Source: Takakia lepidozioides (lineage: Eukaryota; Plantae; Bryophyta). From it: a stretch of 64,000 nt of DNA. The DNA lies in contig CM060733.1 in the NCBI GenBank assembly GCA_030704615.1, positions 33,604,001-33,668,000 of the forward strand, read 5' to 3'. A program made the translations under genes and the position numbers. The notes under the pieces are model-generated. The model searched no databases and was not told the origin of the DNA. It saw only the letters and a list, made by a program, of their open reading frames with translations. Shown piece by piece: positions 3,357-62,560 of this stretch. Each line of letters opens with the position of its first letter. Position 1 is the first letter of the stretch.

Positions 3357-4184
3357 ATGGGGGAGAGGTATAAGGAGAATTTCGATGATTACGACGCCAC
3401 GCCATACCGAGGGGGGTATGATCAAACAAGTGAGTACGGATCTGTGAAGCCCGCCTCAGTGGAGAGTAGCTATGCTGCTGCCGACTACGATCGCGACGAG
3501 GATGATCGCTCTGCCAACTCGTACGGCGCTGAGGTGCGTCCCTATGGCGGAGGACGGTCTTCCAATGAATCTGAGTATGGAGCTAAGCCTAGCTATCATT
3601 CTTCCCACGAGAGTGCAGGCACTGGTCGTGGAAGGCCTGGCTCCTTCGGGCAAGGGAGTGCTGACTCTTATGAGCAGGAGGGAAGGCGTGGCCGGGAGGG
3701 TTATGCCAAACCAGAGCCTGCTTACGGGGAGTCTGCCTACGGTGGTGGCTTCCAGGAGGAGCAGACTCGGCCTAACTATGGTGGTGGTTATGAGGAAGAG
3801 CAGACCGGAAATGACCGCCCTCTGAGGACCTCCAGGCCAAGCTATGGTGAAGGTTATGAAGAGCAGGACAGCGGGTACGAAGGGGCCCTCGGAGGCAGAG
3901 GGAGGGGTCATCATGCGCCCCATGAAGAGAGCTACGAAGGCCGTCGCGAGCAGGGATATGGTGGAAGAAGGGGGTTCGGCGATGAGGAGGGAGTACCTCG
4001 CTTTGGCGTGCCCCCCGAAGAGAGCTACGAAGGCCGTCGCGAGCAGGGATACGGTGGCAGAAGGGAGGTCCGCGATGAGGAGGAAGTACCTGGCTTTGGC
4101 CAGCCTACGTACAGGCAGGAGCCTCGGTTCGGTGACGAGGAGCGTCCTCGCCAACAGCATCGACACCGTAGTGAATGGGAATAG
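3357..4184 (+). CDS. Gly/Glu/Arg/Tyr-rich disordered protein, At5g39570/PLDrp1-like (hydrophilin-type), 275 aa
   Basis: Single-exon ORF. N-terminal NFDDYDATPYRGGYD resembles the family motif DFDEYDPTPYxGGYD. The rest is YG/EE-rich repeats, including EESYEGRREQGYGGRR twice. Confidence 0.8.
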   Translation: MGERYKENFDDYDATPYRGGYDQTSEYGSVKPASVESSYAAADYDRDEDDRSANSYGAEVRPYGGGRSSNESEYGAKPSYHSSHESAGTGRGRPGSFGQGSADSYEQEGRRGREGYAKPEPAYGESAYGGGFQEEQTRPNYGGGYEEEQTGNDRPLRTSRPSYGEGYEEQDSGYEGALGGRGRGHHAPHEESYEGRREQGYGGRRGFGDEEGVPRFGVPPEESYEGRREQGYGGRREVRDEEEVPGFGQPTYRQEPRFGDEERPRQQHRHRSEWE

Positions 4185-5517: not shown

Positions 5518-8309
5518 ATGGCGGCATCTGCTTTGTCTTCCTCATACCTGAGGCCTGCCCCGTCTATAGTTTCTGTGCTTCAGAATGCCAAGCAATGCAG
5601 AGACCAGGTGAAAAAAAGTTCACATGCCTTTGGTTCGTTAGACTCCAGAGTGACAGCCATGGTCGGTGTAGCAAGCTCACGTATTTGTTCCAATTCTTGT
5701 GAAAGGCATTCTCCATCGGCGCTTGTTGGAGACGCGGTCAAATGGGAGCAGAGGAACGTAGACTGTTGGAGGAAGCGGGCCAGGAGAGGAATATGTGCAC
5801 AGGCTGCACTTTTGGAGACTGCTGAATCTTCCAAGGTGACAATCGGAGCACGCTGTTGCATTCTTTTTCAACCTGTTACGTTCAGATCAAGAAGCAAATT
5901 TGTTCTTGTTGGCCATTCTTTGCAGCCATGGGTGAAGTCTTTGTATGAGCATTGTCAAGTGGAATTTGGAGATGAAAGCGGTGACCTATGCGCATTTTCC
6001 AGAGATTGAGTTTATGTCTTTAGTGGTGCACTCTTTCATCCAGAAACACTTGGCAAGTGTTGCAATTGAGATGTTCAAGACGTAATCTGACTGTGTCTAG
6101 TGATTTACACGCCAAACGTCTTGCAGGTTTGTGTATGAAAATTATTCTTGCTTGATACTTCTTCTTCCTTTAATAGCAATTTCCCTGTGCTATATTGCTT
6201 CTCAAAGTAAGGGGACCAGTTGATCATAGATATTCGCAGTACCCGTTCTTGAATCGGATGCCACAGGAAAGCACCATCCAAAGATAGTCCTAACAGCATG
6301 GCTTTCCACCAAGCAAGCTGGAGAGTTCATAGTAAGAACTTTGAAGTTTGGAATAGTCTGGTTTTAAGATTATGAACATCCACTTGTTATTTCTGTACGT
6401 GCAGCTGCAGACAGGAACATGGACTTGGACCAATGAAGGTCGGCCTCTCAATATCCACTACATGGAGCAGTCTGCAGGCGAAGGGCCCTCACAAACTCTC
6501 TTGCTCCTCCCAAGTCTTTCGGATGTCAGCACGACAGATGAGTGGCGAGCCGTCGCTGAGGACCTGGTGTCACAATCAGGGTCTGTGAGGTGTCGAGCTG
6601 TTGTTGTGGATTGGCCTGGGCTTGGATTGTCAGACCGACCTGCAATTGAGTACACTGTGCAGGTCCTGGAGCATTTTCTGGTTGATTTTGTGTCTGCCAG
6701 TGATGGGCCTCTCAAGCTTGCTTCAGGTTCGCAGCTGTGTATCCCCTTATAACATGAGGATTCTTGAAGGCTAGTGTTACTCCAAAACAATGAAATGTGC
6801 AAATTGGAGATTGTCAATTCAAGGCCAGACCTCATGCAGGCAGTGCTGTACCTTTGCCAATAAAAAGCTTTTTTTACTAGGTTTGATACAACTCCAATTC
6901 CTCTTACAATTTTTTAAGTCCAACTGCAACTGTTGATAGAACAAGCAAGCTGGTAAAGCATCTGTGGTCTACTCCATGCAATCATCCCAATTCAAAGGGC
7001 CAGATTGTAGTCGAACACTGGATGGATTAATAAGCAAACTCTTTTTATTTCACTTAACTGAAAGACCACGCTTCTTGGCTTTCATTCCCTTCTGTGATGA
7101 TTTTATATGCTTTTACTTTTTCTCTGCTAAATGTATGGCATTGTAGTCATGGCCCTGGTCTACTGCCGAGAACTTATTTCTCTGAAAAGGTTTCTCTCTC
7201 TCTCCACTCTAGATCCAAGAAACTTGCCATCACCATAGACTTCTGGGCATGTACACGTCCTGTGTTGAAGGAGTAACAACTGCATCTGCAATGTTTATTG
7301 CTTTCTATGAAATTCTGTCAAAGATGTGTCATTGGCCTGCAGGGGAGGCCCCAGTGATAATAGGAGGGGGTCATGCCGCAAGCATAGCAGCAAAAGCAGT
7401 GAGCAGTGGGGCTATCAAGGCACGTGCTTTGGTTCTGGTTGCACCCACATGGGCTGGGCCCCTGCCCATTGTGTTTGGCCGAAGCCCCAGGGCAGAGATC
7501 ATGTATGGCCCCTCATATAAATCCTAGCTTTTTTGTGCAATGGGATGTGTGAGACAGAACAAAGCAGAATTGGAAGGTCATTGGTTGAAAATATTTTGAT
7601 CCTGTCGTCGTACATCTTCAGTTTATCTGACTCTATATACTAGTGGAAGCATGGAATCAGGCAATGTACCTAACAGGAGAAAGCTGACAACTGCCGCTCA
7701 CAGAGAACAAACATAGGAAATGGCCAAAGACGTCTGGAGACATGGATAGATGAGAGGAGTGATGAGAGTTTTGGGGCCGTGAAACGAATGCAGTTCATGT
7801 ATTAGAGGGAGTCCATGTGTTGCTAACAAGTACAGGGGAATTTCATTGGGGGCAGATATGGGCTCTTGCGGAACACACTGAGATCCCCGGGCGTTGGGTG
7901 GGCTATGTACAAGTACCTGGTGAGCAGCCCCAAAAACATACGCCTACAGTACTTAACCCATGTATATGCCGATGCTGACAATGTGACACCTGCCGTTGTG
8001 GAGAACCGGACTGCGTTAACTCAGAGAGAGGGTGCTCGCTATGCACCTGCAGCATTTCTCACAGGGTTACTCGATCCTGTGCAATCACGGGAAGAGTTTT
8101 TGTCACTGTTTGCTGAGTTGGAAGGTAAGCTGCCTGTTCTTGTTCTTTCTACCAGTAAGAGCCCACGACGATCACGTGCAGAGATGGAGGCCCTGAACGA
8201 GGCCAAGGGGGTCACCAAGTATGTGAGACTCCGAGGAGCACTACTTCCCCAGGAGGAATACCCGGAAGATGTCTTTCGTGAACTCCAAGTGTTTCTCAAG
8301 GAGTTGTAA
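5518..8309 (+). CDS. Plastid-targeted alpha/beta-hydrolase (At1g74640-like). Exons 5518-5835, 6405-6726, 7343-7502, 7856-8309
   Basis: Ser/Ala-rich transit-like N-terminus, then LPSLSDVSTTDEW, DWPGLGLSDRP, GGGHAA, APTWAGPLPIVFG, ARYAPAAFLTGLLDPV and GALLPQEEYP. GT-AG introns are phase-consistent. Confidence 0.9.
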
Positions 8310-9650: not shown

Positions 9651-11575
9651 TAAGGCTGATTGTTTTGGACTTGGGTCCAAACTGGGTTAGGGAAGTCAGG
9701 ACTATTCATCTGCAGAGGTTTAGTGTTTGTCCTAAGCCTAACATCCGAAACAGGTTCATCATTAGCAGACTGCAGTTCAAGCATTTGAGGGTGGATTGAT
9801 GTATCTGGCAGGTGGATGCTGTACATGGAAAGAATAGGAACCGTGTTCCAGGGGACACGTGATCTACATGGTGAAGGCAAGGCAGACGTGCAGATAAGCC
9901 CTAGAACTGCGGCAGGAGGTTAAAAACAGCGCACAGTTGAACACCACCACCGGGACACATCACAACAACTGCCCAACAGGAACCTCAGCATTTCCAGACA
10001 ACGCAAACGCAAAGCTCTTCAGAACAGATCAATTGGTGTTTGAAAGGCTTTCATTGTTGCCCTCAAGAAGCGATGTTCATCATAAGAAGCAGAACGCAGA
10101 CAGAAGGACATCAGAGAGGATCGCTGTAAAAAAGTTTCAAAGCAGTCGCAGTCGAGATGAAACCGCCTCCAGGTGCCTGATCTCAGGTGCTCCAGGACTC
10201 TACTTCTCCCAGGCCCAGAGTGATTCTAAACAATGCAGGACAAGATTCTAAGAGGCAGGTCTGTAATAACCCCACAAACAGAGATGCCAAAAAACGTTCT
10301 GCCGCCGAAGCGAGCCCAGACACAAATGGCAGTGATACAACTCTGGACAGGAGGGTTTAAATATATTGCGTGACTGCGGGTCTGAACCCTAAAATCTCCG
10401 GCTGCAAAGAGTTGCAGCCTAGATGTATGCACGGCAATTAACGTTACTTCTGACCACTAGGTTTTGTATCGATCAATTCAAATTATTTTGAGTTCCCAGG
10501 TACTGTATTCAAAGTTCTGGGAATTTCCTGGAGGAGGGTGCAAACCTTTGGAGATTCGGGCGCCATCTGTCGCATGGCGTTCAGGACTCTGGGTTTAGGT
10601 CCACTCTTCAACAGCTGCTCTTGCATAGGTGTTGTGAGGATTGCAGATACAGATACCTGCTCTTCCTTAGCCATTCACATGAGTGGAGGTCGTCAAGCCA
10701 TGTGTAGTAATGTCGGGCTCTCCACGCCTCGGTGCTCTCCTTGGTGTCTGTGTAGGGTTTCTGGTTGAATTGCATGCTTGCTATTTCGATCACTACAGAA
10801 GGCGGGTGAGGCATGCCACTATAAAACAAACGTGTCATCCCGTGTCACTTTTCCGATTCCTCTCTGATTTCTATGACGGTGAGGAGGTTGTAGGCGGAGA
10901 TTAGCAGGAAGGAAACGCGTGGGGGAACAACCAAGAGGAGTTGCATCTGATTTACATGTGAATTCTATTCACCAAATCCCTCATTATAATTTTGAGCGAT
11001 GGCCCTTTCTGTTGGAATGGTTGGTGCACTATCATGTTTGACATTGGAGATCCTACGATGATGACCCGATGCAATTTACTTTCTATCTGTCCAACCTTCC
11101 AAAGACACTTGGACTGTTCCGTAAGCCCAACAATCCACTATTTCAAGTTCAATTTCAATCAAAGAGGTGGAAATGGTTTCTGTTTTATCAAAGAGGCCCC
11201 ACTGTGCTCGTCCTACAGGCATTGGCGAACATTTTATGTGAAGCAAGAATTATCCACAGCTCCATCTGATCTCATTTCAAACACAGAATTTTGTTAACCA
11301 CTGTTGCATGAGACAACGAACCAAATCAGAGTGTACAACAGAATTTCATGCAGAAGTCAAGATTTGATAAGCATACAGACAGACTGCAACAACAGCTAAA
11401 ATAGAACAGCTTCTTTTCCCTCGGGAAGAAATGATATGGAGGACAAGTGAAGGAGCAAGGTCTGGAGATCCCTCTGCAAAATTGTCACTGGAGCGGGGAG
11501 CATACTAGCCTAGCAAAATCAATTTCCAGCACCAGGTCCATAAACATTGAATTAAGAGAGGGACAAGCCCGACAT

Positions 11576-13075
11576 CTAGAAAGCTTCATAACATATTGCC
11601 TCCAGCTTGGCCATGTCTGGTTCAAAAAGCCCAATCACCACATCAATACTTCCGTCTTGCGTGTATGAAGGAATCAATATTGCCAGACCCTCCATTGGAA
11701 TCGTAGGGGGTCCTGCAAAGGTGGGAGTTCCCCACCCAAAGTCCAGCTTGTACAGCGGCAGCTGCACCCAGCTGGTGACAATCATATTTGGGCTCTTGAA
11801 ATTGAGGCAGGGTTCTTCCTCTGAACTTCCAAAAAATCAACAGCTGAACGCATGTACTCAGTGTCTATTCGACTTTCAAAAGCTGTGTAGAACCCCCACT
11901 GGTCATTCTCCTTTATGGCTTGGCTCTTGATTTTTTTCAACGTCTCTGGATCAAAGTGAAGCTTCTTCCTTGACAAAGGGGGGTACGTAGGTGGTACCTC
12001 TGCTTCAGGCTTTGGTGGGGGTCGTTTGTACTCAATGTGATCAAATGTTGGAGTTGGGGGGTCTCTAGGCGTCAATGGTGTGCGATCACGGAGGGGAGGT
12101 GAGAAAGGAAGTCCCTTGCAGGCAGCTGCCCATGCATCCATGAAGTAGCTAGCAGCCACTCCATCTGCCACTTGGTGGTGACGTGCAACTCCCAATGTCA
12201 TCCCTCCACATTTGTACTTGGTGACCACGGCAAGTAACGTCACAGTACTTTTGAGATCCGCAACTACTAGGCTATGAAGACAGAAACCGTCTCCCTCTGA
12301 TGTCTTTCATGAATTGTGAGGAGGCCTGGACAGCTAAAAACGAACGATCTCCACTCAAATGGAAGTTGAGAGTTCCGTTCCATGGCTACAAGATAGCACC
12401 CAAACATCGTGGCATGTACTCCATACTTGCAAAGTCTGAAAGAAAAAACCCCTTGATCAATGTTCAGTGGAATGCAGGGCTCTCAATGTGCCATATACTA
12501 ACAAAGGATTCAGTTCTGGGCTTTCTCTCTGACTGGAGTTGAAAATGTAGCATCCTTTCAATAATACCAGCAACTTGGAGTCAACTATGGAGTACAACTT
12601 AACTGGCGGGAGCGTTTAAACAGAAGGGTCCTTATTCACAAGCCATACCAAGAAAACAAAATTTTCATCTCATTACTCAAGTACCAGGTGAAGGAACAGA
12701 GTACCACCTGGATAAGAAGCAGCTCCTCGACTCTCCGGTTGGGGGGCACCATGTCAAGCAAAATGGGAGATGGATTGAAGGGAAAGATGTCCGTCAAAAA
12801 TCCATCTGCCTCAGCTTCAATAAACACAGCACCTGCATCATTCAGATCGAAGGCGGGCCGACCCGTCTCATCTTTTCCGAGACGACCGGCCCACTCCCTG
12901 TACTCATCCAATGTTTTAGCTAGACCGTCTTCCAGAACGGACGCAGGGGGCGTCGGGGCATCAAAGGCATAGATCACTTGCACAATTACACTGGCAGTTG
13001 CCAAATCCACAATGCCCAGAGGCAGCAGGGTCCGAGGACCGGCCCCCAGGGCTCGGTTTCAAGGCTGATTTTTGC
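11576..13075 (-). pseudogene. BAHD acyltransferase (HCT-like) pseudogene
   Basis: Has HHQVADG (HxxxD), DFGWG and YREWAGRL. The conserved Q-intron (~12226-12708) lacks its AG acceptor. There is an internal deletion at TAFES|RIDTEY, frameshifts, and no start codon before ~13077. Confidence 0.88.
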
Positions 13076-13870: not shown

Positions 13871-15195
13871 TTACTTACAAACTTACAATCAACTGGCATA
13901 CTGTATTTCCTAGCTCATTGATAAACCAAGAAAATATCTCTCAAAGAAGAGAGGCTTCAGGCAAGTATGAAGAGGTGCTAAAGTCTTATAGTTAGAGAAT
14001 AAGTGGTAGGAATGCTACATGTTTGGAACCCAAGAAAATAGTAAATACAATACCATATGTATCCAAGGACTCGAGCTTTGTGAAGGCTTATTTTGTGCTT
14101 GAATGAGATTCTTCGGTCCTCACAAGTGCACGTTAAACTAGGGGTGTAAGAGCTCGGAGGGGGGGGGTGGGGTTTACTGCACGAGAAGAGAGATGAACAT
14201 GTAGAGGATCTCATCGTAGCGTGAGAGGCACCGAGATGAATCAAACCAATCCTCGACTTCTTCGGGAGAGTAGAGATCGGCACCGCGAGGTGGAATGAAG
14301 AGTTTCCATCCAGGAACGTCATGAACCGGTGTACAGGACCATACCAGCCTGAAGCTGTTGTTGCACCCAGGCGCCCAGTGGGGAAGGACCGTCAGTGACG
14401 GCCTTGAGCAGAATTGGAAGAGCAGAGATACAAAGGCTTGCTCGACTCTCTCAAAGTTTCTGCAATTCGTGCCTGCCAATCCTCCGCTTCAAGATCCCTA
14501 TCACCGGACTCTCTGAGCGCTCTGCGGCGATCGAGATTTGCCTGCAGGTATGGGGCTGACCTTGCTCTGATACGAGGTAATCTTGGTGGAGCTCTCCGCT
14601 GGTTGTCGTCCACCTCCTGAAGAACCTGCATGATGACGAAGGGCGGAGGATGGGAAAACAGAGAAGAAAAGGAAGAGAGAAACAGAGCTGGAACCCATGC
14701 TTCAATTCTAAAAGTAGTCCCTGTTCTATATTTGGATTTCCATACTATAATCAATTCAACGCACTGACTGTAGGGCGTGTCCCCATTAGGCCGTAACCGT
14801 AACTGGACCCGGCCCACAACTGGAGGTTCCAGCATGTGTTGGAGCTGCGAAAGTTTAGTCTCGAAGATAAGAGGTAGGTAACACAATCACTTGTCTTGTC
14901 GACATGCGGGCAGGAGCAAGAATTATTCTATCAGCAACGAGCGGCATGCGAAACGTGGCAGTGCGTGCTGCAGTATCAAGTGACCAAGTATTCGTATATG
15001 AAAAGAGACAACTGTTCACACCATGTCTCTTGGACGCTTTACATCTGTCATTGGCACTCGAGATACTTGTTCGTGCGCGCAGTCTATCAGAATGGGGCCG
15101 TATGACTTTGATTGTCTGAAAGCAGTTTTCGTAAATCAAAAGACTTCTGATCCTCTTCTGATCTTCAATACTCTAACTCTACAATGACTGACTCC

Positions 15196-15540
15196 ATGGC
15201 AGAATGCCACGGACTCATTCTCGAACGATTTGATGGTAAGAACTTCTTCCTATGGAAATTCAAGATGGAGATCATGATTTTAGAAGAGTCGAAGGGTGTA
15301 TGGAATGCTATCTCGAATGAAGATACTAACTAGAAGAGTTTGATGACGATGAAGTAATCAAGGCCTTCGCACAAAACATGCTTGCAAGGCATCGAGGATT
15401 TGCCTAAAGTTCAGGTGATTGAACTCATCTCGAATTCAACCGCAAGCACATAACTTGGATGCTCTTGAAAACATGTGGGAGACCAAGAGCTTGATCAACA
15501 AACTCTTTCTACACGTAAGTCTTCACAAAGAAAATCAATA
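15196..15540 (+). mobile_element. Ty1/Copia gag remnant; possible LTR start at ~14837 (TGTTGGA)
   Basis: MAECHGLILERFDGKNFFLWKFKMEIM matches the Copia gag N-terminal motif, followed by stops. Confidence 0.7.
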
Positions 15541-15725
15541 CCCGGTTGGATTGAGCATTGAGTGTCAACCAGGTGATTCACTAGTACTAGCACTTCTCGA
15601 GATGATCAGACTTCTCTTCCTGCTAACTTACACCTAGACTTGGCCTATCGGAGATTTGTCTACAATATACATGTATGCAACTGCCTGATTGATTTCAAGG
15701 AGAACTGAGTGATGTTCTCCTCGAG

Positions 15726-16877
15726 ATGAGAGGCATCAACAAGAACAGTCATTCTTACGGGAACTCAAAAATTGCAAAGGCTGCTCTAAAGGAGGCGGTA
15801 TCTAATCTCCTATTCCTAAATGTGACACACGCAAAAATCAAGAAGATCGTACACAAGGTAGTGATAGAGGCATCTGAATCCCTCCCTCGCAAGCCTGTGG
15901 TCTACAACGCATGCTTTGGCGAGTTCGAATTTTCGGAAGCCTTCAAAGCATACGAGTATGAAGATCCCAGTTCATGCACGGACGATGGGTACTCCGTCGA
16001 CCGGACCTTGCTATACGACACGATTTGTGCATTTGGAAAGGCCGTATGTGGTCAGGCGCGGCTGATCGAGCAACACACTCGGTGTGTGTATGTTTATCGG
16101 CTGCATACCGAGCTGCGAGAACTACAACGGCTGGAGGATAACACGACCTTCATGCGCTCTACGGGCCAGATCATTGAACAGCGGATATGGAGCAAGAAGT
16201 TTGGGAAAAATGACGACATCGATCTTTGGACTCTCGTACACTCCGATCGTGTCGACGAGGAATTCATGTCCAACATGTCTAAATGTGCTCTGACCAAGGC
16301 AGCGAATGCTGTGGAGGCAGAACTCTCAAGCCTGCAAAACACAATCACAACCGAGATCGCTGACCTCATGACGGAGTTTGGTGACGAAACTCTGACAGCA
16401 GCCTACCGCTTTCTGGAAGCTGCCCGTCCAGCACCCTACCACATTGCCAAGGTCTGTCAGAAGCTCGAGTCAGGGAAGGGGGCCGCCTTCGAGAAAGCTC
16501 GCAAAGAATGCAAGGACACAATTGTGTTCGCTATGCGCTTTCCAGAGTACTGGTACCTGGATCCTCGTCATCAGCGTCGCGATGCCTTTGGTGATGTTCA
16601 CGGGAATCTGGTCCTGGATGCATATGCATGTGCAGCTTCGATCGTCAAAGGGTGGGTGCTGTTTCCACCTCCCCTCTACCCAGACTTATCCAAGATTGCA
16701 GCCACTGTGCACGAAGCCGTTGGCTTTCTCTTCGCCGGGTCACAGGACTCGCTCTTGAAAGTGGAATGGGTGCCCCAGCTCGCCGACTACCATATCACCA
16801 ACTATGATGGCTTTGAAACAGTGAATTGGGGGTACCAGAACTCGAATGCTGAAGCTGGATTCTACATGACACCCTGA
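15726..16877 (+). CDS. Intronless 383-aa hypothetical protein with phage/NCLDV-like terminal motifs
   Basis: Uninterrupted ORF. VVYNACFGEFEFSEAF and LLKVEWVPQLADYHITNYDGFETV recall a viral hypothetical family (recalled, not searched). Confidence 0.65.
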   Translation: MRGINKNSHSYGNSKIAKAALKEAVSNLLFLNVTHAKIKKIVHKVVIEASESLPRKPVVYNACFGEFEFSEAFKAYEYEDPSSCTDDGYSVDRTLLYDTICAFGKAVCGQARLIEQHTRCVYVYRLHTELRELQRLEDNTTFMRSTGQIIEQRIWSKKFGKNDDIDLWTLVHSDRVDEEFMSNMSKCALTKAANAVEAELSSLQNTITTEIADLMTEFGDETLTAAYRFLEAARPAPYHIAKVCQKLESGKGAAFEKARKECKDTIVFAMRFPEYWYLDPRHQRRDAFGDVHGNLVLDAYACAASIVKGWVLFPPPLYPDLSKIAATVHEAVGFLFAGSQDSLLKVEWVPQLADYHITNYDGFETVNWGYQNSNAEAGFYMTP

Positions 16878-18041
16878 TGACCAGATGTTTGGAAAGCCTG
16901 CACCAGTCAGTCCAAGAGTGGCGACCATTTGCAAACTTGGAGATCATGAATCTCTGCATCCCCAGAGAAATCTACCAGGCACTAGCGAAGCTCGTGAAGC
17001 CGCCCATGATGATCAAGACCAAGGAAGTAGCTGTTGAATGTGAATGTGGCTTCTGCAGCTTGCAACGTGGAGGTGCGAAACACACTTTTGAATTGGGGCA
17101 AGTCTGAGGTGATATTTTGTGACTGTGCATGAAGTGCACAATGAGGTATTGGGGCCCCCTCCACTGTCACTCTGAATCCGAAAGTTGGTTGGGGGCCTGG
17201 TTTTGGAGGGGATGACATCATTGAAAGGGAAGACACTTCAATGGTGTCATGCTTCGGCTTCCCCCACACAGGTCCAGCTCACTCCAACTGCCGACACAAA
17301 GGTTTCTTCAAAATTGAATGGAAGGCAATGGATGTCAAGAGTACGCACACACACTGCAAGAGTTGTTGCAGCAGCAAATGTGAGCAACTCTTCTTAAGAG
17401 ATGCTTCCCCTCTTTGCTTCAAATCTCACTGCCGAGTTAAAATGCCTTTCACCACTGCATAAGGGAGGGTGTCAGACATATACAACATACGAGTCCATAA
17501 CTCAGTTCTGAACGAGATTCGGCAGGAAGATCCCTGCTTCAATGAACACAAGTTTTGTGGAAATACATAGCACAATGACCACCAGGAGGTTGATGGAGGG
17601 GACAATTTCCCTATCATTGGAGATTACTGGTGCCATTTGAGGGCAAGGACTAATCGATCACAGGGGAAATCAAAATACATACCAACTCTTTTCATGTACA
17701 GAGAGAGGGAAGGAGGCAGTCCCAACCGCAAGAGCAGAACAGACAACAGAAGGAGAGGATGATGCTTCTGGGAGGATGATGCTTCCGAACGACCCAATGA
17801 CAGGCACACCTGGTGGCTCTTGTATCGCACCATGCCTGGATGTACTCATGAGACGTTTGCAGCAGCCTTGGTGCCTGTCATTCCGACCTGACCGGCACTT
17901 GGAAAGAAAGCGACGTTTGTGAAGGGAGTTTACGAGACTTACTATTTTGGAGAGAATGAAACTGCAGCAGGGCAGGGCTGGTGGACTGTTGTCTCACTAG
18001 CAATAAATGATTCATGGAAAACCAATAGAGAAGCCACGCAG

Positions 18042-21000
18042 TTAGCGTGGAGATATTTCGAGGAACTTTGCTAAAACTGCATGTCGTCGTCCAAGAGATA
18101 TTGCTACCCAAAGCCATCCCACACACACCTGCAGCACACACATGAATTTAAGGACTCCTTGGTCAAGGAAGAAAGCAGAGAAGGTCAAATAGTGCCACGC
18201 CCTTATCTCTTGTCTGCACTTTGTCAAAATACAGGGGACAAGACAACAGACTAATGCTGGGCTCCAGCTTTAAGAAACAACAGAAGAGAACATACTTATG
18301 TGCTTGATTTGAACCCTGCTCCCTCTCTCAATAGTCCCCACTCAGGGCCTCCTGTGGACTTTCCGATGTCTTTAATTCATCATTCATTCTTCCTCTCTCC
18401 TCTCTCTTCTCTCACATCCATCTTCTACACTCTAAGCAACCCCCATCGCTTTGCTAGTTTCACTACTTTGGAGGAGTTTAAAGAGCGATAGATCACACAA
18501 AATAATCTACAAACTCCTTGCAGAAGCAATTTGCTACTGTGCAGCAATAGTAAGCCAGAGTGCAACAATAAAAACTATCCCATTAGTTGCACATTCAATG
18601 GAAATGGACCCTACCGGCAATGCGCAGATGGCAACAGCTGAAGGCCCCTGCAAAAGCAAGCCTTCCATCACCTTGTAAATACCTGCTGCAGCGGCATCTC
18701 CCAATCTTTGCACAAATGTGTCAATGCACACCTGGACAATCAAGAGAATTGGTATCTCTCATAGACCATACCTCATCCTAAAGTAGCAGAATTTGGATGT
18801 TTGACAGGCAGAATATGGGGAGCAAGAGGGATTGAGCAACCAATGAGGGCACTGATTTCTTTTATGTGACCCTTTCTGTTGTATACTCATTTTGAAACAA
18901 ACCACCAGTAAAAGAGAAACCTGCAGCACAATGACAAACATAACAATGCTGACACTGGTCTAAGCTTTTCTCTGCACAAATTGGTTCACCATTTTCAAAG
19001 AGAGATTGAGAACTATTCACTGACATTCGGGCAGGGCACAGAGGTATTCACCTTGGCCTTATACTTCTCTTCACGAGTAATGACTGTGAAGAGGATCTCC
19101 CTGGCTGGTCTTGTTACAACATAATTGATCAACTGTAAAAAGCACACAACATTGATGTGGCAAGCACTCACTGCACCGATCCTTTTTTATGACATGTCAG
19201 CTTCACAAATCTTGTCCAAAGAGCACCATAACTGAAGATGCTTGTGAATGTTTTTAATGTTTTTTAGGGGTTCCATATCAGGGAGTATTACTTCTCATGA
19301 CCTACTGCTTAAACAATAAGGGATCCTTGGTTGTGTCGTGTAAGAATCTTTCAGCCCGCAAAGAAAACAGACAGCCTCCTGGTTTAATTCCCCCTGAGCC
19401 ATATCAGCTAAAGGTATGATTTTCTTGCCTCCGTTAGCCACAAGAGTGGTCTTTCAAGGATTAAAATTTTCTCTAGTACAAGTATTCTTTACAAAGGCCC
19501 TGGATAGGGGGTGACCCCCCAAGGGGAAGAGGCTCCAATTTATGCTGACTTCAGTCGGTGTTGTCTCTCTCTTCTCTACAATCAAACGACCTAAAACAAT
19601 TGTATAGAACAAAAAACTCATGTAACAAAGCCTTACTTGCGGACCTTGCGAGTGGCCTCAGAGACAGCCACAACCAGTGAGGATGGTGATGTAGCAATTG
19701 AGGTCAAATTCAGGAATGCCACCACAGGTAGTGCACAAAGGGCTGCAGTCACTCCAACCCTAGTTAGAAGCCGCCCCTGCAACCAAATATTATCTCCCAT
19801 TAATATAGCAGCATCTCACATCCTATTACTCTCCAAAGAATGCTAGGCATAATTTGCAGGTCTGAAAGAAAGAAAGAAACTTTATAACATACAAAAGCTC
19901 CCTCAAAGCTGAAATCCCGCAGTGCATTGTCCAACTCTAACTGGCAGCAACACCTCTACAAGAGAGGAGAGAAATCAGGCACTTCCCTCCAAACATTTAT
20001 CAACACTCAAAAGTGGTGCTGTCAGGAAAGTATGCCTGAAGATGTAATAAAATACCGTGACAGTGAGTTGGCCAATGAGGATAACAACAGCAGTCAAACT
20101 GTTGATCTCTGCCAGTAATATTCTCCTTCCCACAGGGTCTTGGACGGTTCCCGCTACCACAGCAGATCTCTGAGCAAAATAATCTGACTTTCTCAGCTGG
20201 CTTCACACTCTTCTCACCATTAAGCATCTTCTGGCTCATCGAGTAGCTAAATCCCAGTACATACACACCTTTTCATACTATGGACTGAACCATCTTTCTT
20301 GTAACTTAACAAAGATACGATCGAAATAATGTTGGACACAGGTAAGACTGTTCTGTCTCTAAGGATCCCCAACCACAGCCAGACACAGTTAGCAGCAAGC
20401 AACCAACACATATCAATCTATTTTCACCCTACTGGTACAGGAGGTTGGAAACATGGAAAAAAAAACATCTCTTCGCTGATTAGCAGTGGAAATTACCTTG
20501 TGAGTATATTTATTCAATTTCTTCTCCACTCTGATGTGAGGGATTTGGGAAACCAGCATTTGTCTTCCGGGTTACTGGTTAGAGGCAGCAAGAGAACAAA
20601 ACTTCTAGAATAAAGATGGAGAGTTCAGCAACCTTCCATGGTAAGCTTCCTACATGGAAATTAAGAAGAATCTAGAACAAGGATAAGGAGATTAGAAAGC
20701 TTCCTATGGAGAGCCAGTAAAGAGCTAGGGAAGCATGTTCAAGTAGGGGTTTTGCATATCCAAGCGAGAAAGTTGGTAAAGAAGGCCAAGGAAATGGTTG
20801 TCCTGTTTGTGAGGGAGGCCAAGGATGCAAGTGCCAAGGAACCAAGTCTGGACAAACCTTCCACTCTTAAGTTGCTGTTCTATGCTCAAGTAATGAGAGA
20901 GAAGGGAAAAGGCCTGGGCACCTCAAAATAGAAGAAGGATGAGATGACAGCTGTCAGCCAAAGGAATGCACAAGCATAAAGGAGGTATGTCGAAGCCAGA

Positions 21001-24000
21001 ATCAGCCGCACACCCTCCAGCATAGCAGAAAGCTTAGCAAGTGGCTGAGTGTCAACGGACTCCTCTGAAAAACTCAAAGACTCTACCGTATCTCCACCTT
21101 TGCTTCCATCATCGCTGCCTTCAATAAACTGTTGACCTTCACTCTCCTTGCTGTTCATGAAACACTGACATTGTGTCAATTTCTATGAAGGAATCAGGGA
21201 TCAATTAGAATTAGACTTAGTATAGCTCCTCCATCCTAGAATAATCAATGTACAGATAACTGCCCCAGTTAGAGTGACAGAAGGATCAGGGAAGTGGCTT
21301 TTTTACTCACAGCGGCTACGTAATTGCTAGAACCTTTCTCTCTCTGTGGTTCCTTGTTGTTTCACTTGTGTCCCTTGGGCTCTCGCAATGTACTCAATTC
21401 CTTTCTTTCTGTCTTTCACTTTCTCACATATTCCCCGGACTCTTTGGCGGCGATACGAGAGACCGTTTTTGGATTTCCCGCATCTCCGGGTTGCTCGCTA
21501 GCATCTCTCACACACTCACATCAACTCTTTGGTTCCCTGTCTCTAAATTGATGTTCATCCCTTCTTTCTTCTTCCTCGGGCTTGCATAGTTGCTGGCCAT
21601 CAGCTGCTATACTCTTTACATGGTGATCCATTGTCCCAATGCTACCTGTACATGTACCTCCCAAGGTTGGGTGGCAGTACTTGACCTAGAAAGGGATACT
21701 GGGTCCAAACCGTCTTCACCAACACTTACAGCACAGCGTGCAGCCAGCTCCATCATAAGTGCTGAGACCAGCAACAAAACTGCAGAACATACAACAAGAG
21801 CATCTGAAGTGTGTCCAGCAATCGTTAAGCTAGTTATGATCAATTTGCTTCTAGCACCCCTACAATCTGTCTCCTTGTATTTCCGTTCATGCTGGAAAGA
21901 CCCAAATCAATCCACGGAACAGGAAAAAGTAAAATACTTGTACAATTCAATACATTCCCTGCTAGGGCCTGTCAGAGACTTAATGGTCCTGGTTGCCTTT
22001 GGCAACTGGCAGCTCTTGGACAGTCACAGACACCATATTACAAATGCTTCTTTTTAGTCTAAATAAATTCAATGATTTAAAAATGTGATATTTGATGATC
22101 GAATAAGATTTAAAAACAAAAAAAAAATTAAAACTTTTGAAGTTTCTTTTCTAATATGTTTATAGCTGCGTGAGGCTACGGCAAATACCGTCTCATGAGT
22201 ACATTCTAATATGTTGGAAATATGTTGAGAACACCAGAGCCCACAATTGACAATTTTAAAGAACTCAGTGAAATGTAAAGTACATGGAATGTGTCATTCT
22301 TCAATCCATAACTGATTAAGCTTTTGTTTCCTTTCCGATGAAGAGAGGTGCATACTTGGTCCAACGCGAGCCATGGCAACAGCCATTAATGACCCAACTA
22401 GCTGACCTAGTGTTGCACCCGCGCCCACAAACCCAAAAAGCCTTAGCCCAGCCTGCCAAGTGACGTAGATGTGGCTGCATCAGTCAAAAATAAGGAAAAA
22501 ATGTTTGCTCTTCACAACCCAGTTTGACCCAGCACACTTCCACCCAAAGAGAAGTTATGAGTATGTGAATCTGGACGAACTTCAATAGTGCAGCAAGGCC
22601 TCTTGAATGTTGTACAAACCTCACTAGTCATAATGTCAGAGAGTCGAGCCCACATTGCTGAAATTGTAAACAGATTCAGTAACGCAATCTGCAACCAGAA
22701 ATTGAATAATGGTCATTACTTTCACCCAAAACATATAAAACATGGCATGTCAACAAATGGGGTGACACATTCCTCGTTCATCCACCTAGATTCAGCACTA
22801 GAGAAAGGCAACAATTTAACTTGTGAGTTGTAACTCTTACGAGCAAGAACAGAACTGCTAACTTTCAATTGCCCAAAGGGTACAGAGATGACGTACAATC
22901 TACCTCATGTATGTGACCCCTGTAGAAGTCGACTTATCAAAAGGACAGCTACATGCAAACTGAGCTATGGACTCGAGGTGTACGGCAATCTGTTGAGACT
23001 AAAAGCGTCTGACAGCACAGGTGAAGCCATATATCAAGTTTCTAGTTTAGAAGAGGGTACTGGAACATTACATGGAAGAACAATAGGCAATGTGATGTAA
23101 TGCCATATAAACTCACCCATAAGAAGAAGCTACCACGCACAGCAATGAACATCCATGAAAGGCTTTGCCAATTGGTGGGATGGACTGAGTTCCTATCGAC
23201 AGCCCCCAAGGCAGCTTCAGCTTTCAAGCCATGCAGTAAGCTTCCAACCTAGCCATCCATCCCTCTCATCAACCTGTCTGACCATAATTCTCCTGCCAGA
23301 TTTGAACACTTAAGACGCAGGACACTCATTCATTTGACACGACGTTCAATTAGTCCAATATATCACTGTGAGAGCTGGTAAAGAGTTCACAATTGGAGAG
23401 GTAACCAAGGATAAAATGAGATAACCACATCCCAGGTAGAGAAGAGCTTTCCAAGATGAAAACAGAGGCAGCAGGACAAAACCTTAATGAAGACGTGGAA
23501 AAAGAAACAGTAAAAGAGGAGGGAAACTAGAAAGAATGCTGTTTCATCAATTAGACAGTCAATCCAAGAGAGCAGGACAAATCGACTACATCCTGTATGA
23601 CAGTGACCAGCAACTCCCCACTGACTTCATCAGTTCCCACCAGAGGGTTCAGATATCTGAGTTTCAGTGTCACCACTGGAAGACTAAGCCAATACATAAT
23701 TGTAGCATTCAAATTCCGAAAAGGCCAGACTTGAAAAACAAGGAAAGGACGAGAAAGAGAGAGAGAGAGAGGGGCATAACCGAACTAAGATAAGTAGGCT
23801 GGAAAAACTCAAAACTATATCTGAACATGTTCCATACTTGAGCCCTAATCTGTTGTTTGAGCTTTAGCCACAACCTTTGTAACTGTTGGCAAAGGAGGGG
23901 CAGGAACTGTGATATACAGGAGGAAGAATAGAATGAGCGAACCACCGAAGAATCTGTACAGTATAACAAGTGCCTGCAAACCAACCAACACCAAAGAGCT

Positions 24001-61544: not shown

Positions 61545-62560
61545 CTGTGAAGGGAGAGTTTGACAACATGGTTGAACAAGATGTTGTCTCATGGAACCTG
61601 CTGATCGCAAGATATAGCCAACATGTGTGCGAGATGAGGGCATTGGAGACATATGAGCAAATGTTGCGGGAAGGGGTGCAGCCTGACCGGGTCACGTTCA
61701 TTTGTGTTTGCAATGCATGGGCAAACCTGGCAGCCCTGGAAACCTGGAGATCTGGTAAAGGGCAAAGAGGTCGGGGAGTTTCAGGCGTTGTGTGACAAGG
61801 CCTTGGTAGACCACCGCACCACTTCTCGGGATCATCCTGAGGCCGATGGCTTGGCAGAGAGGGTTGTTTAGACAGTGAAGAGGGGTTTGCGCAAGTATGG
61901 CTTGCAGAAGGGACACCTAGGAGATTGGGACCTTCAGTTACCTTGGTTAGCCATGGGCTACAGGTTCAGCAAGCCAGCATCACTTGTCTCCTTCTCACCA
62001 TACTTTCGTCAAAGCTGGAACTGTACCAGATGCAATACCTCGTGGACATGTATACCAAACGTGGGAGCATTCCTTTGTGGACAGGGAGTGTTCAACAATA
62101 TGGCTGAGCGAAATGTGGTGTCGTGGAACGTGATGATCGCAAGACATGCACAACAGGGGTGGGGATTGCAGGTTTTGGAGACCTATGAGCAAATGATGTG
62201 GGAGGGGGTGAAGCCCGACCACATTACGTGTGTTTGCGTTTGCAGTGCATGTGCGAGCCTGCTAGAGAAGGGCAAAGATGTCCATGGTTGCATTGTCAAA
62301 GCTGGAATTGTGGCAGATGTCATTCTGAACAATACCCTTGTGGACAGGGAGTGTTCAACAATATGGCTGAGCGAAATGTGGTGTCGTGGAACGTGATGAT
62401 CGCAGGACATGCACAACAGGGGCGGGGATTGCAGGTTTTGGAGACCTATCATGAGCAAATGATGTGGGAGGGGGTGAAGCCCAACCAGATTTGATGGAGA
62501 AGGGCAAAGAGGTCCATGGTTGCGTCGTCAAAGCTGGAATTGTTGGAACGGTGAACATTG
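61545..62560 (+). pseudogene. PLS-PPR fragments interrupted by a Gypsy integrase fragment (~61750-62005)
   Basis: FDNMVEQDVVSWN..GVQPDRVTFICVCNA and FNNMAERNVVSWN (twice); insert reads HRTTSRDHPEADGLAERVV..WDLQLPW. Confidence 0.8.

What the first reader, a model, noticed from the sequence alone, without database searches (positions are those of the whole stretch)
15726..16877. Intact intronless ORF with phage/giant-virus-like motifs: candidate horizontally acquired viral gene
Seen: a 383-codon stop-free, intronless ORF among decayed sequence, next to a Copia remnant, while most neighbouring genes are intron-rich. Recalled: VVYNACFGEFEFS..F near the N-terminus and LKVEWVP...YHITNYDGFETV at the C-terminus resemble a hypothetical family of tailed phages and NCLDVs (V.N.C[YF]GGF..S ... 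LK...[IV]P....Y.I.EYDG.E.V). Here a long helical insertion separates the two motifs. NCLDV-derived sequences are known in moss and lycophyte genomes. Inference: an endogenised viral gene, either recent or domesticated.
Basis: inference. Interest (0 to 1): 0.75.

Follow-up and report, generated by a model that had tools for sequence, protein, structure and literature searches.

The report
Lone virus-family gene in a plant
A land plant carries one intact, intron-free gene from an unnamed protein family otherwise found here in phages, giant-virus DNA, fungi and a green alga, so it was likely picked up by horizontal transfer, though the donor and any use to the plant remain unproven.

Summary
The ORF is real: 383 codons at 15726-16877, the longest in the window and far beyond chance. 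It lies on one single-copy contig with a spliced host gene, and a second study holds part of it, so it is integrated. It belongs to an unnamed family built on PHROG 16527. Short forms (about 90-160 aa) are common in phages. Long forms add an N-terminal helical hairpin and a helical insert; this ORF matches them over residues 15-381 (E 3e-57), so the insert is the subfamily norm. Long forms occur on giant-virus-type contigs, but also as intronless genes on fungal contigs and in the green alga Coccomyxa, which is the nearest tree neighbour. AU tests reject no donor. No close relative was found among 5.8 billion proteins, no other viral gene lies beside it, and it lacks the CpG depletion of most host exons. 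Verdict: horizontal acquisition of a virus-associated gene is likely; direct capture from a giant virus is about even odds against an algal or fungal relay; domestication is not shown.

The parts
15726..16877 (+). Intact single-exon ORF, 383 aa, long-form member of the PHROG 16527-related family
15756..15887 (+). N-terminal two-helix hairpin (predicted helices 11-30 and 35-50, conserved His35, then LP53-54); typical of long forms, not seen in short phage forms
   Evidence: model; a hairpin profile scores the ORF at E 4e-9 and the best of 55 short forms at E 0.05
15888..15944 (+). First core motif (P54..Y60, G65, S70, F73); predicted beta-strand 56-61 plus a helix
16098..16385 (+). Long predicted helical hairpin (about residues 125-220) within the variable insert; only generic coiled-coil matches
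16722..16829 (+). Second core motif (G333, A337, L344, P350, Y360-D-G, E364); three predicted beta-strands; PHROG 16527 match
15184..15725 (+). Decayed reading frames resembling the start of a Copia gag (recalled, not confirmed by Pfam); same strand, abutting the ORF; the ORF's frame is open for 11 codons upstream of the ATG
   Evidence: (no Pfam hit)
14955..15172 (.). Multi-copy repeat, possibly an LTR or leader of the decayed element; no second copy near the ORF
   Evidence: (other contigs match with 6-16 differences; summed depth up to 265 against 25)
17483..18133 (-). Last exon and 3' UTR of a spliced host gene converging on the ORF (TLC-type ATP/ADP transporter-like, name recalled)
   Evidence: RNA-type contigs of runs X6 and X7; exon positions; no Pfam hit on the short exons

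Best explanation
This is an intact single-copy gene in a land-plant chromosome that likely arrived by horizontal transfer of one accessory gene from a giant DNA virus, and it is probably a little-expressed passenger rather than a domesticated plant gene. Shown: it is integrated, has no intron, and is a full-length member of the long form of an unnamed phage/giant-virus family. Predicted: a small alpha/beta core made of the N-terminal motif strand and three C-terminal strands, carrying an N-terminal helical hairpin and a long coiled-coil arm. Inferred: it entered as a DNA fragment beside a decayed retrotransposon, which may have supplied the start codon. Inferred at low confidence (about 0.25): in viruses the conserved YGG/EYDG surface binds a host protein or small ligand, as a non-essential host-modulating factor, and the helical arm serves as a spacer or docking module.
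For: Family: 49 hits at E<=0.001 among 1.84 billion representatives, 161-421 aa, 47 with two matched stretches. A profile of the long forms built without the ORF matches residues 15-381 at E 3e-57; a short-form profile gives 6e-12. Viral context: long forms lie on two IMG/VR contigs; L058 carries AEP_C962R/D5_N/PriCT_2 with an intein, Rpb5_C and DUF5901; L001 has two copies among DNMK, zf-MYND and SAP genes. Short forms lie on many phage contigs and in 13 GenBank phage records, annotated at most as hypothetical; their commonest neighbours are small unannotated ORFs. Integration: one contig at depth 25 spans 15123-21473, covering the ORF and the spliced host gene; flanking single-copy contigs have depth 16-30; run X5 of another study covers 15676-15826 (1 difference) and 15853-16003 (0 differences). 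Foreign look: no relative at E<=0.001 among 2736 word-sharing candidates from 5.8 billion proteins; CpG across codon boundaries 36 observed of 42.1 expected, against 15 of 54.7 in five host exons, p 8e-5. Precedent: giant-virus ORFs in moss and lycophyte genomes (PMC4083422); bryophyte HGT genes are intron-poor and LTR-associated (PMC12513842).
Against: The nearest relative of known source is a Coccomyxa protein (97/86, with a long-branch warning; one co-linear alignment at 25% identity over residues 43-374), not a viral one. Only 3 of 200 family hits on 199 viral loci were long forms. Long forms are also intronless genes on fungal contigs. AU tests reject no alternative grouping (p 0.10-0.34). 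No other viral gene lies in the window: 877 ORFs from 17 homologue loci hit only this ORF, unlike the clustered moss elements. GC3 is 0.58, against 0.21-0.27 in the three viral long forms and 0.50-0.57 in six fungal ones. Against 'passenger': the frame is intact beside a decayed element and keeps 28 of 35 conserved columns (family range 23 of 36 to 33 of 35), and one host exon (3357-4181) also lacks CpG depletion (32 of 35.5).
Confidence: 0.5

Rival explanations
1. The gene came through another eukaryote: a green alga such as Coccomyxa, or a fungus living on the plant, which had itself kept a copy of this virus-associated family.
For: Sister to Coccomyxa P0060 at 97/86, with shared insert features such as FA..FP..W.L and a similar C-terminal tail. 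The top phmmer hit P0002 groups with the fungal-contig members. Fungal copies are intronless with similar GC3. Grouping with the fungal clade is not rejected (p 0.335). The gene is solitary.
Against: Identity to every known eukaryotic copy is only about 25-30% and the end branch is 1.1-1.4 changes per site, so none is close to the donor. The fungal clade is separated from the ORF's side by a 99-100/94 branch. The Coccomyxa join is between two long branches. Independent captures from related viruses would give the same tree.
Confidence: 0.3
2. It is an old, vertically inherited eukaryotic or green-lineage gene that evolves fast and was lost from most lineages, with viruses as later recipients.
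For: Members occur in a green alga, fungi and this plant; plant and alga group together; the frame and conserved residues are intact.
Against: No relative at E<=0.001 in the word-indexed search; only 1 of the 29 hits looked up (of 49) carries an organism name, although model plant proteomes are in these sources (my knowledge). It has no intron, fungal copies sit beside different genes in each locus examined, and the family's bulk is viral.
Confidence: 0.12
3. It is a transposon gene or cargo of the adjacent Copia-like element, or contaminating DNA joined in by the assembly.
For: It abuts, on the same strand, a gag-like remnant and a multi-copy repeat, and its frame is open 11 codons upstream of the ATG.
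Against: Single copy at flat depth 25 with no second repeat copy downstream; no transposon domain in Pfam; one contig joins it to a spliced host gene, and a second study spans the upstream junction.
Confidence: 0.05

Closest known systems
PHROG 16527 (phage family of unknown function, 119 positions)
   Same: C-terminal motif matches at E 1.2e-6; 39 of 49 aligned long forms match it; long and short profiles align at 99.2% probability over 42 columns.
   Different: The ORF is about three to four times longer, with an N-terminal hairpin and a helical insert; YGGF is FGEF and EYDG is NYDG; the C-terminal HRTW of many phage forms is absent.
Giant-virus-like regions of Physcomitrium patens and genes of Selaginella moellendorffii (Maumus et al. 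2014, PMC4083422; Results section read)
   Same: Intronless virus-related ORFs in a non-seed plant, near LTR elements. One Selaginella protein there (EFJ10148) had homologues only in a few fungi and one giant virus, and its donor was likewise unresolved.
   Different: The moss regions are 61 clusters of 2-16 gene families with core replication genes, many pseudogenised. Here there is one intact accessory gene, single copy, with no hallmark gene. Whether EFJ10148 is of this family was not tested.
Coccomyxa subellipsoidea COCSUDRAFT_59470 (EIE26977.1) and its close relatives P0024/P0060
   Same: Same long architecture and nearest tree neighbour.
   Different: 25% identity, degenerate first motif, function unknown; its genomic context was not seen.
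Lineage-specific HGT genes of bryophytes (PMC12513842; section on HGT read)
   Same: Intron-poor, near LTR sequence, unknown function.
   Different: Donors highlighted there are mostly bacteria and fungi; this family is mainly viral. Its supplementary HGT tables were not opened and could already list this gene.

Membership tests
PHROG 16527-related family, long form | Both core motifs in order, with conserved G, A, L, P and YDG.E | tested here: met
   28 of 35 conserved columns kept; the three invariant columns G333, A337, P350 present
PHROG 16527-related family, long form | N-terminal His-bearing hairpin and helical insert | tested here: met
   profile match 15-381 at E 3e-57; hairpin profile E 4e-9; model pLDDT 82, pTM 0.80
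Endogenous giant-virus element (GEVE / moss NCLDV-like region) | Cluster of viral genes including hallmark genes | tested here: not met
   flanks are host genes and repeats; 877 ORFs from 17 homologue loci hit only this ORF; no other ATG-ORF over 275 aa in the window
Virus-derived single gene (virus-to-plant HGT) | Homologues in giant viruses | tested here: met
   L058 with D5/C962R primase-helicase and Rpb5; L001 compatible but without a hallmark gene in the 18.8 kb held
Virus-derived single gene (virus-to-plant HGT) | Phylogenetic nesting inside viral sequences | tested here: inconclusive
   nearest clade has no viral assignment; AU p 0.10-0.34 for four alternatives
Virus-derived single gene (virus-to-plant HGT) | Physically linked to host DNA | tested here: met
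   contig 15123-21473 at single-copy depth; second study spans the upstream junction
Virus-derived single gene (virus-to-plant HGT) | Absent from related plant lineages | tested here: inconclusive
   no hit, but no related genomes could be searched directly
Domesticated viral gene | Transcription and purifying selection in the host | not testable with these tools
   no orthologue pair for dN/dS; only contig-level RNA-type runs were available
Silenced endogenous viral DNA | CG/CHG methylation | not testable with these tools
   only sequence proxies: CpG o/e 0.86, CHG o/e 1.02; fewer CHG in the 5' half than a synonymous shuffle gives, p 0.02, uncorrected
Copia/LTR retrotransposon protein | gag, protease, integrase or RT domain; multiple copies; flanking LTRs | tested here: not met

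The most novel reading that the evidence does not exclude
An undescribed accessory-protein family, one of the commoner unnamed small phage genes, grew helical extensions in giant viruses and was then kept repeatedly and independently as an intact nuclear gene by fungi, green algae and a land plant because it does something useful, such as interfering with giant-virus infection; the plant copy would be a domesticated gene started from a retrotransposon remnant.
Probability: 0.15. Interest if true: 0.75.

Novelty: new member of a known kind. Interest (0 to 1): 0.42.

Why it matters
Single virus-related genes in non-seed plants are a known class, so one more is modest news. The added value is the family: it is unnamed in Pfam and NCBIfam, its predicted core has no clear structural match, and it persists as an intact intronless gene in three distant eukaryote groups. 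If plant orthologues show selection, it becomes a testable case of repeated recruitment of a viral accessory protein, and a marker for giant viruses that infect land plants, which are known mainly from genomic fossils.

Tried and rejected
No whole genome is held, so paralogues and synteny could not be searched. No RNA holder was listed; the two guessed-RNA runs give no contig over the ORF while covering the genes on both sides, which is not evidence of silence. Pfam: nothing for the ORF, and nothing shared by long or short forms; NCBIfam nothing real. Word-indexed searches: ORF 0 hits, alignment A1 2 hits, P0038 found only itself and P0030, unnamed. ESM Atlas: no usable hit for the ORF; three weak unnamed phage/bacterial clusters for P0017. 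The single-sequence fold failed (pLDDT 36). Fold searches with the good model gave no Foldseek match at E<=0.001 and only coiled-coil matches (best Z 8.6, rmsd 2.2, 86 aligned; and Z 9.3, rmsd 2.8, 97 aligned) over about 125-220; the core was not folded alone, so its fold is untested. PDB sequence search: the short-form profile hits a repeat protein (4fs7, E 3e-5 summed over five stretches, best single 0.37); set aside as a short motif likeness. Homodimer prediction: no answer. Bacterial/archaeal genome scan with the fungal-clade patterns: 29 pattern matches, none confirmed; two other attempts gave no pattern, so prokaryotic chromosomes are barely tested. The records of L001, L058, L219 and L225 are not held for hallmark searches, and L037's record gave no capsid, VLTF3 or A32 match. 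A 76-codon ORF overlapping the stop codon and the frames at 16877-17500 have no Pfam match. Literature: 'phrog_16527' and 'COCSUDRAFT59470' gave 0 papers; four topic searches listed nothing on this family by title or abstract start.

Full report
Observation. The ORF runs from ATG 15726 to TGA 16877 on the + strand and gives 383 aa without a stop. It is the longest of 30 ATG-ORFs of at least 120 aa in the window. The other five frames hold 11-15 stops each, and 0 of 100 Markov resamples of the window (max 280 codons) or 0 of 2000 of the ORF (max 303) reach this length. The host is a land plant by its genes (BAHD transferase, PPR, hAT) and GT-AG introns. An earlier unchecked note on this genome concerns mosses and liverworts; I did not test the host's group.

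Integration. In run X1, which may be the source sample, one contig at depth 25 spans 15123-21473 and so joins the gag-like remnant, the ORF and a host gene on the - strand. That gene's last exon is covered by spliced RNA-type contigs from two other studies, ending about 600 bases past the ORF's stop. Run X5, from another study, has two 151-base contigs at depth 2: 15676-15826 (1 difference), crossing the start, and 15853-16003 (0 differences). Depth is flat over the ORF, no second copy exists in the window, and no terminal repeats frame it. Contamination and a transposon cargo are unlikely.

Family. Pfam and NCBIfam give nothing; PHROG 16527 matches residues 337-372 at E 1.2e-6. The exhaustive phmmer search found 49 relatives at E<=0.001, 161-421 aa long. 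They share an N-terminal two-helix hairpin with a conserved His, the motif P...V.Y...YGGF..S..F, a variable helical insert with a conserved Trp, and GL.A.....L.V..VP.L....I.EYDG.E.V. A profile of the long forms built without the ORF matches residues 15-381 at E 3e-57. The ORF keeps 28 of 35 conserved columns, inside the family range.

Where the family lives. Short forms of about 90-160 aa lie on many viral contigs and in 13 GenBank phage records, annotated at most as hypothetical. Long forms were found on two IMG/VR contigs. L058 carries a C962R/D5 primase-helicase with an intein, Rpb5 and DUF5901, which marks it as a giant virus; L001 has two copies among DNMK, zf-MYND and SAP genes, compatible with one but with no hallmark gene in view. 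A further clade of long forms lies on metagenome contigs that look fungal: of 12 loci I listed ORFs for 8 and scanned neighbours from 5, finding STE3, clathrin, HET and a DUF2235-type lipase with an LRR gene, and nothing for L067. These copies are single open frames. Of 29 hits looked up (of 49), one has an organism name: Coccomyxa subellipsoidea COCSUDRAFT_59470.

Phylogeny. A quick mixture-model tree of 55 long forms leaves the ORF unresolved in a 20-row group with the algal and fungal rows (SH 80), outside a 97-supported clade holding the viral-contig rows. An LG+G4 tree of 63 rows and 210 columns (left out: fragment P0045, near-duplicates P0024, P0034, P0054, P0055, and long-branch P0036; added: three fungal-locus rows and ten short forms) joins it to Coccomyxa at 97/86 with a long-branch warning, inside a 14-row clade at 95/90. 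Without Coccomyxa it stays with the same 12 unassigned proteins at 98/91. AU tests do not reject grouping it with the fungal rows (p 0.335), the L001 clade (0.101), L058 (0.263) or two short forms (0.287). The donor is unresolved, and no known sequence is close: about 25-30% identity and an end branch of 1.1-1.5.

Structure. With the 49-row alignment AlphaFold gives pLDDT 82 and pTM 0.80: helices 11-30 and 35-50, a strand at 56-61, long helices 126-156 and 186-218, and strands at 344-349, 355-360 and 363-368. Since short phage forms consist of little more than the two motifs, I infer that these form one small alpha/beta domain. Fold searches matched only the helical hairpin, to unrelated coiled coils; the core alone was not tested. 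Function is inferred, not shown: a non-essential viral factor whose conserved aromatic, glycine and acidic residues bind a host partner or ligand (about 0.25).

Age and use. CpG across codon boundaries is 36 of 42.1 expected, against 15 of 54.7 in five host exons (p 8e-5). Nine transposon ORFs range from 4 of 10.3 to 10 of 10.7, and one host exon is also undepleted at 32 of 35.5. This fits recent arrival or an unmethylated gene. Intactness beside a decayed element fits either recent insertion or selection. GC3 of 0.58 is unlike the three viral long forms (0.21-0.27) and like six fungal ones (0.50-0.57). The frame is open for 11 codons before the ATG, in sequence that recalls the end of a gag domain, and the next in-frame ATG is codon 143, so the start may be borrowed from the remnant; the gag identity is recalled and Pfam did not confirm it. 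I put silent or weakly expressed passenger at about 0.6 and domesticated at about 0.35.

Comparison with the literature. PMC4083422 (abstract and Results read) describes clustered, methylated, silent giant-virus regions in Physcomitrium and isolated genes in Selaginella, one with homologues only in a few fungi and one virus. PMC12513842 (HGT section and passages read; supplements not opened, and they may list this gene) reports frequent lineage-specific, intron-poor, LTR-associated HGT in bryophytes. PMC7017919 (first third read) reports endogenous giant-virus elements in fungi. PMC12344493 (passages read) reports that genes of recent viral origin tend to be methylated and clustered. This locus is not such a cluster: 877 ORFs from 17 homologue loci hit only the ORF. 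Two exact-term searches found no paper on the family.

Verdict. Horizontal origin is likely (about 0.8 in all): directly from a giant virus 0.5, by way of an alga or fungus 0.3; vertical descent 0.12; artefact or transposon 0.05. It is a new member of a known kind, in a family that deserves a name. Interest 0.42.

Noticed in passing
L063-L073 (e.g. L064:10001-10759, L066:1539-2423): A clade of intronless long-form family members on fungal-type contigs, beside different genes in each locus examined (STE3, clathrin, HET, DUF2235-type lipase); probably basidiomycete (my inference).
   Followed up: partly
L099-L218 (e.g. L104:7776-8090): A second common phage family of about 100-120 aa (VAVLYSPGFGAGW ... 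W[IV]P ... EYDG.E) that matches PHROG 16527 only weakly and has no Pfam family; a sister group of the short form.
   Followed up: partly
window exons 1543-2277, 6405-6722, 7905-8306, 11785-12201, 61953-62393: Host exons are strongly CpG-depleted (15 of 54.7 expected at codon boundaries) while most transposon ORFs are less so, which suggests gene-body CG methylation; PMC4083422 reports almost unmethylated genes in Physcomitrium.
   Followed up: no
window 16875-17107: The ORF's stop codon overlaps an ATG (TGATG) that opens a 76-codon frame with a CxCxxC-like cluster; no Pfam match; the DNA is CpG-poor like host sequence.
   Followed up: partly
P0034 versus P0024/P0060: The annotated Coccomyxa protein (315 aa) lacks two stretches present in near-identical 421-423 aa relatives, so its gene model may contain false introns.
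   Followed up: no
P0012, P0030, P0038, P0044: These family members carry an extra N-terminal PRSL.EL motif that recalls a BC-box (recalled, untested); P0012 and P0044 have the same longest-contig length, so they may be neighbours.
   Followed up: no
window 11348-13046: RNA-type contigs over the BAHD-type gene differ by 7-10%, so they come from a paralogue; this copy's own expression is not shown.
   Followed up: no
L037, L219, L225: An intermediate form (core plus C-terminal tail, 150-220 aa) on viral contigs of 41, 330 and 349 kb.
   Followed up: partly
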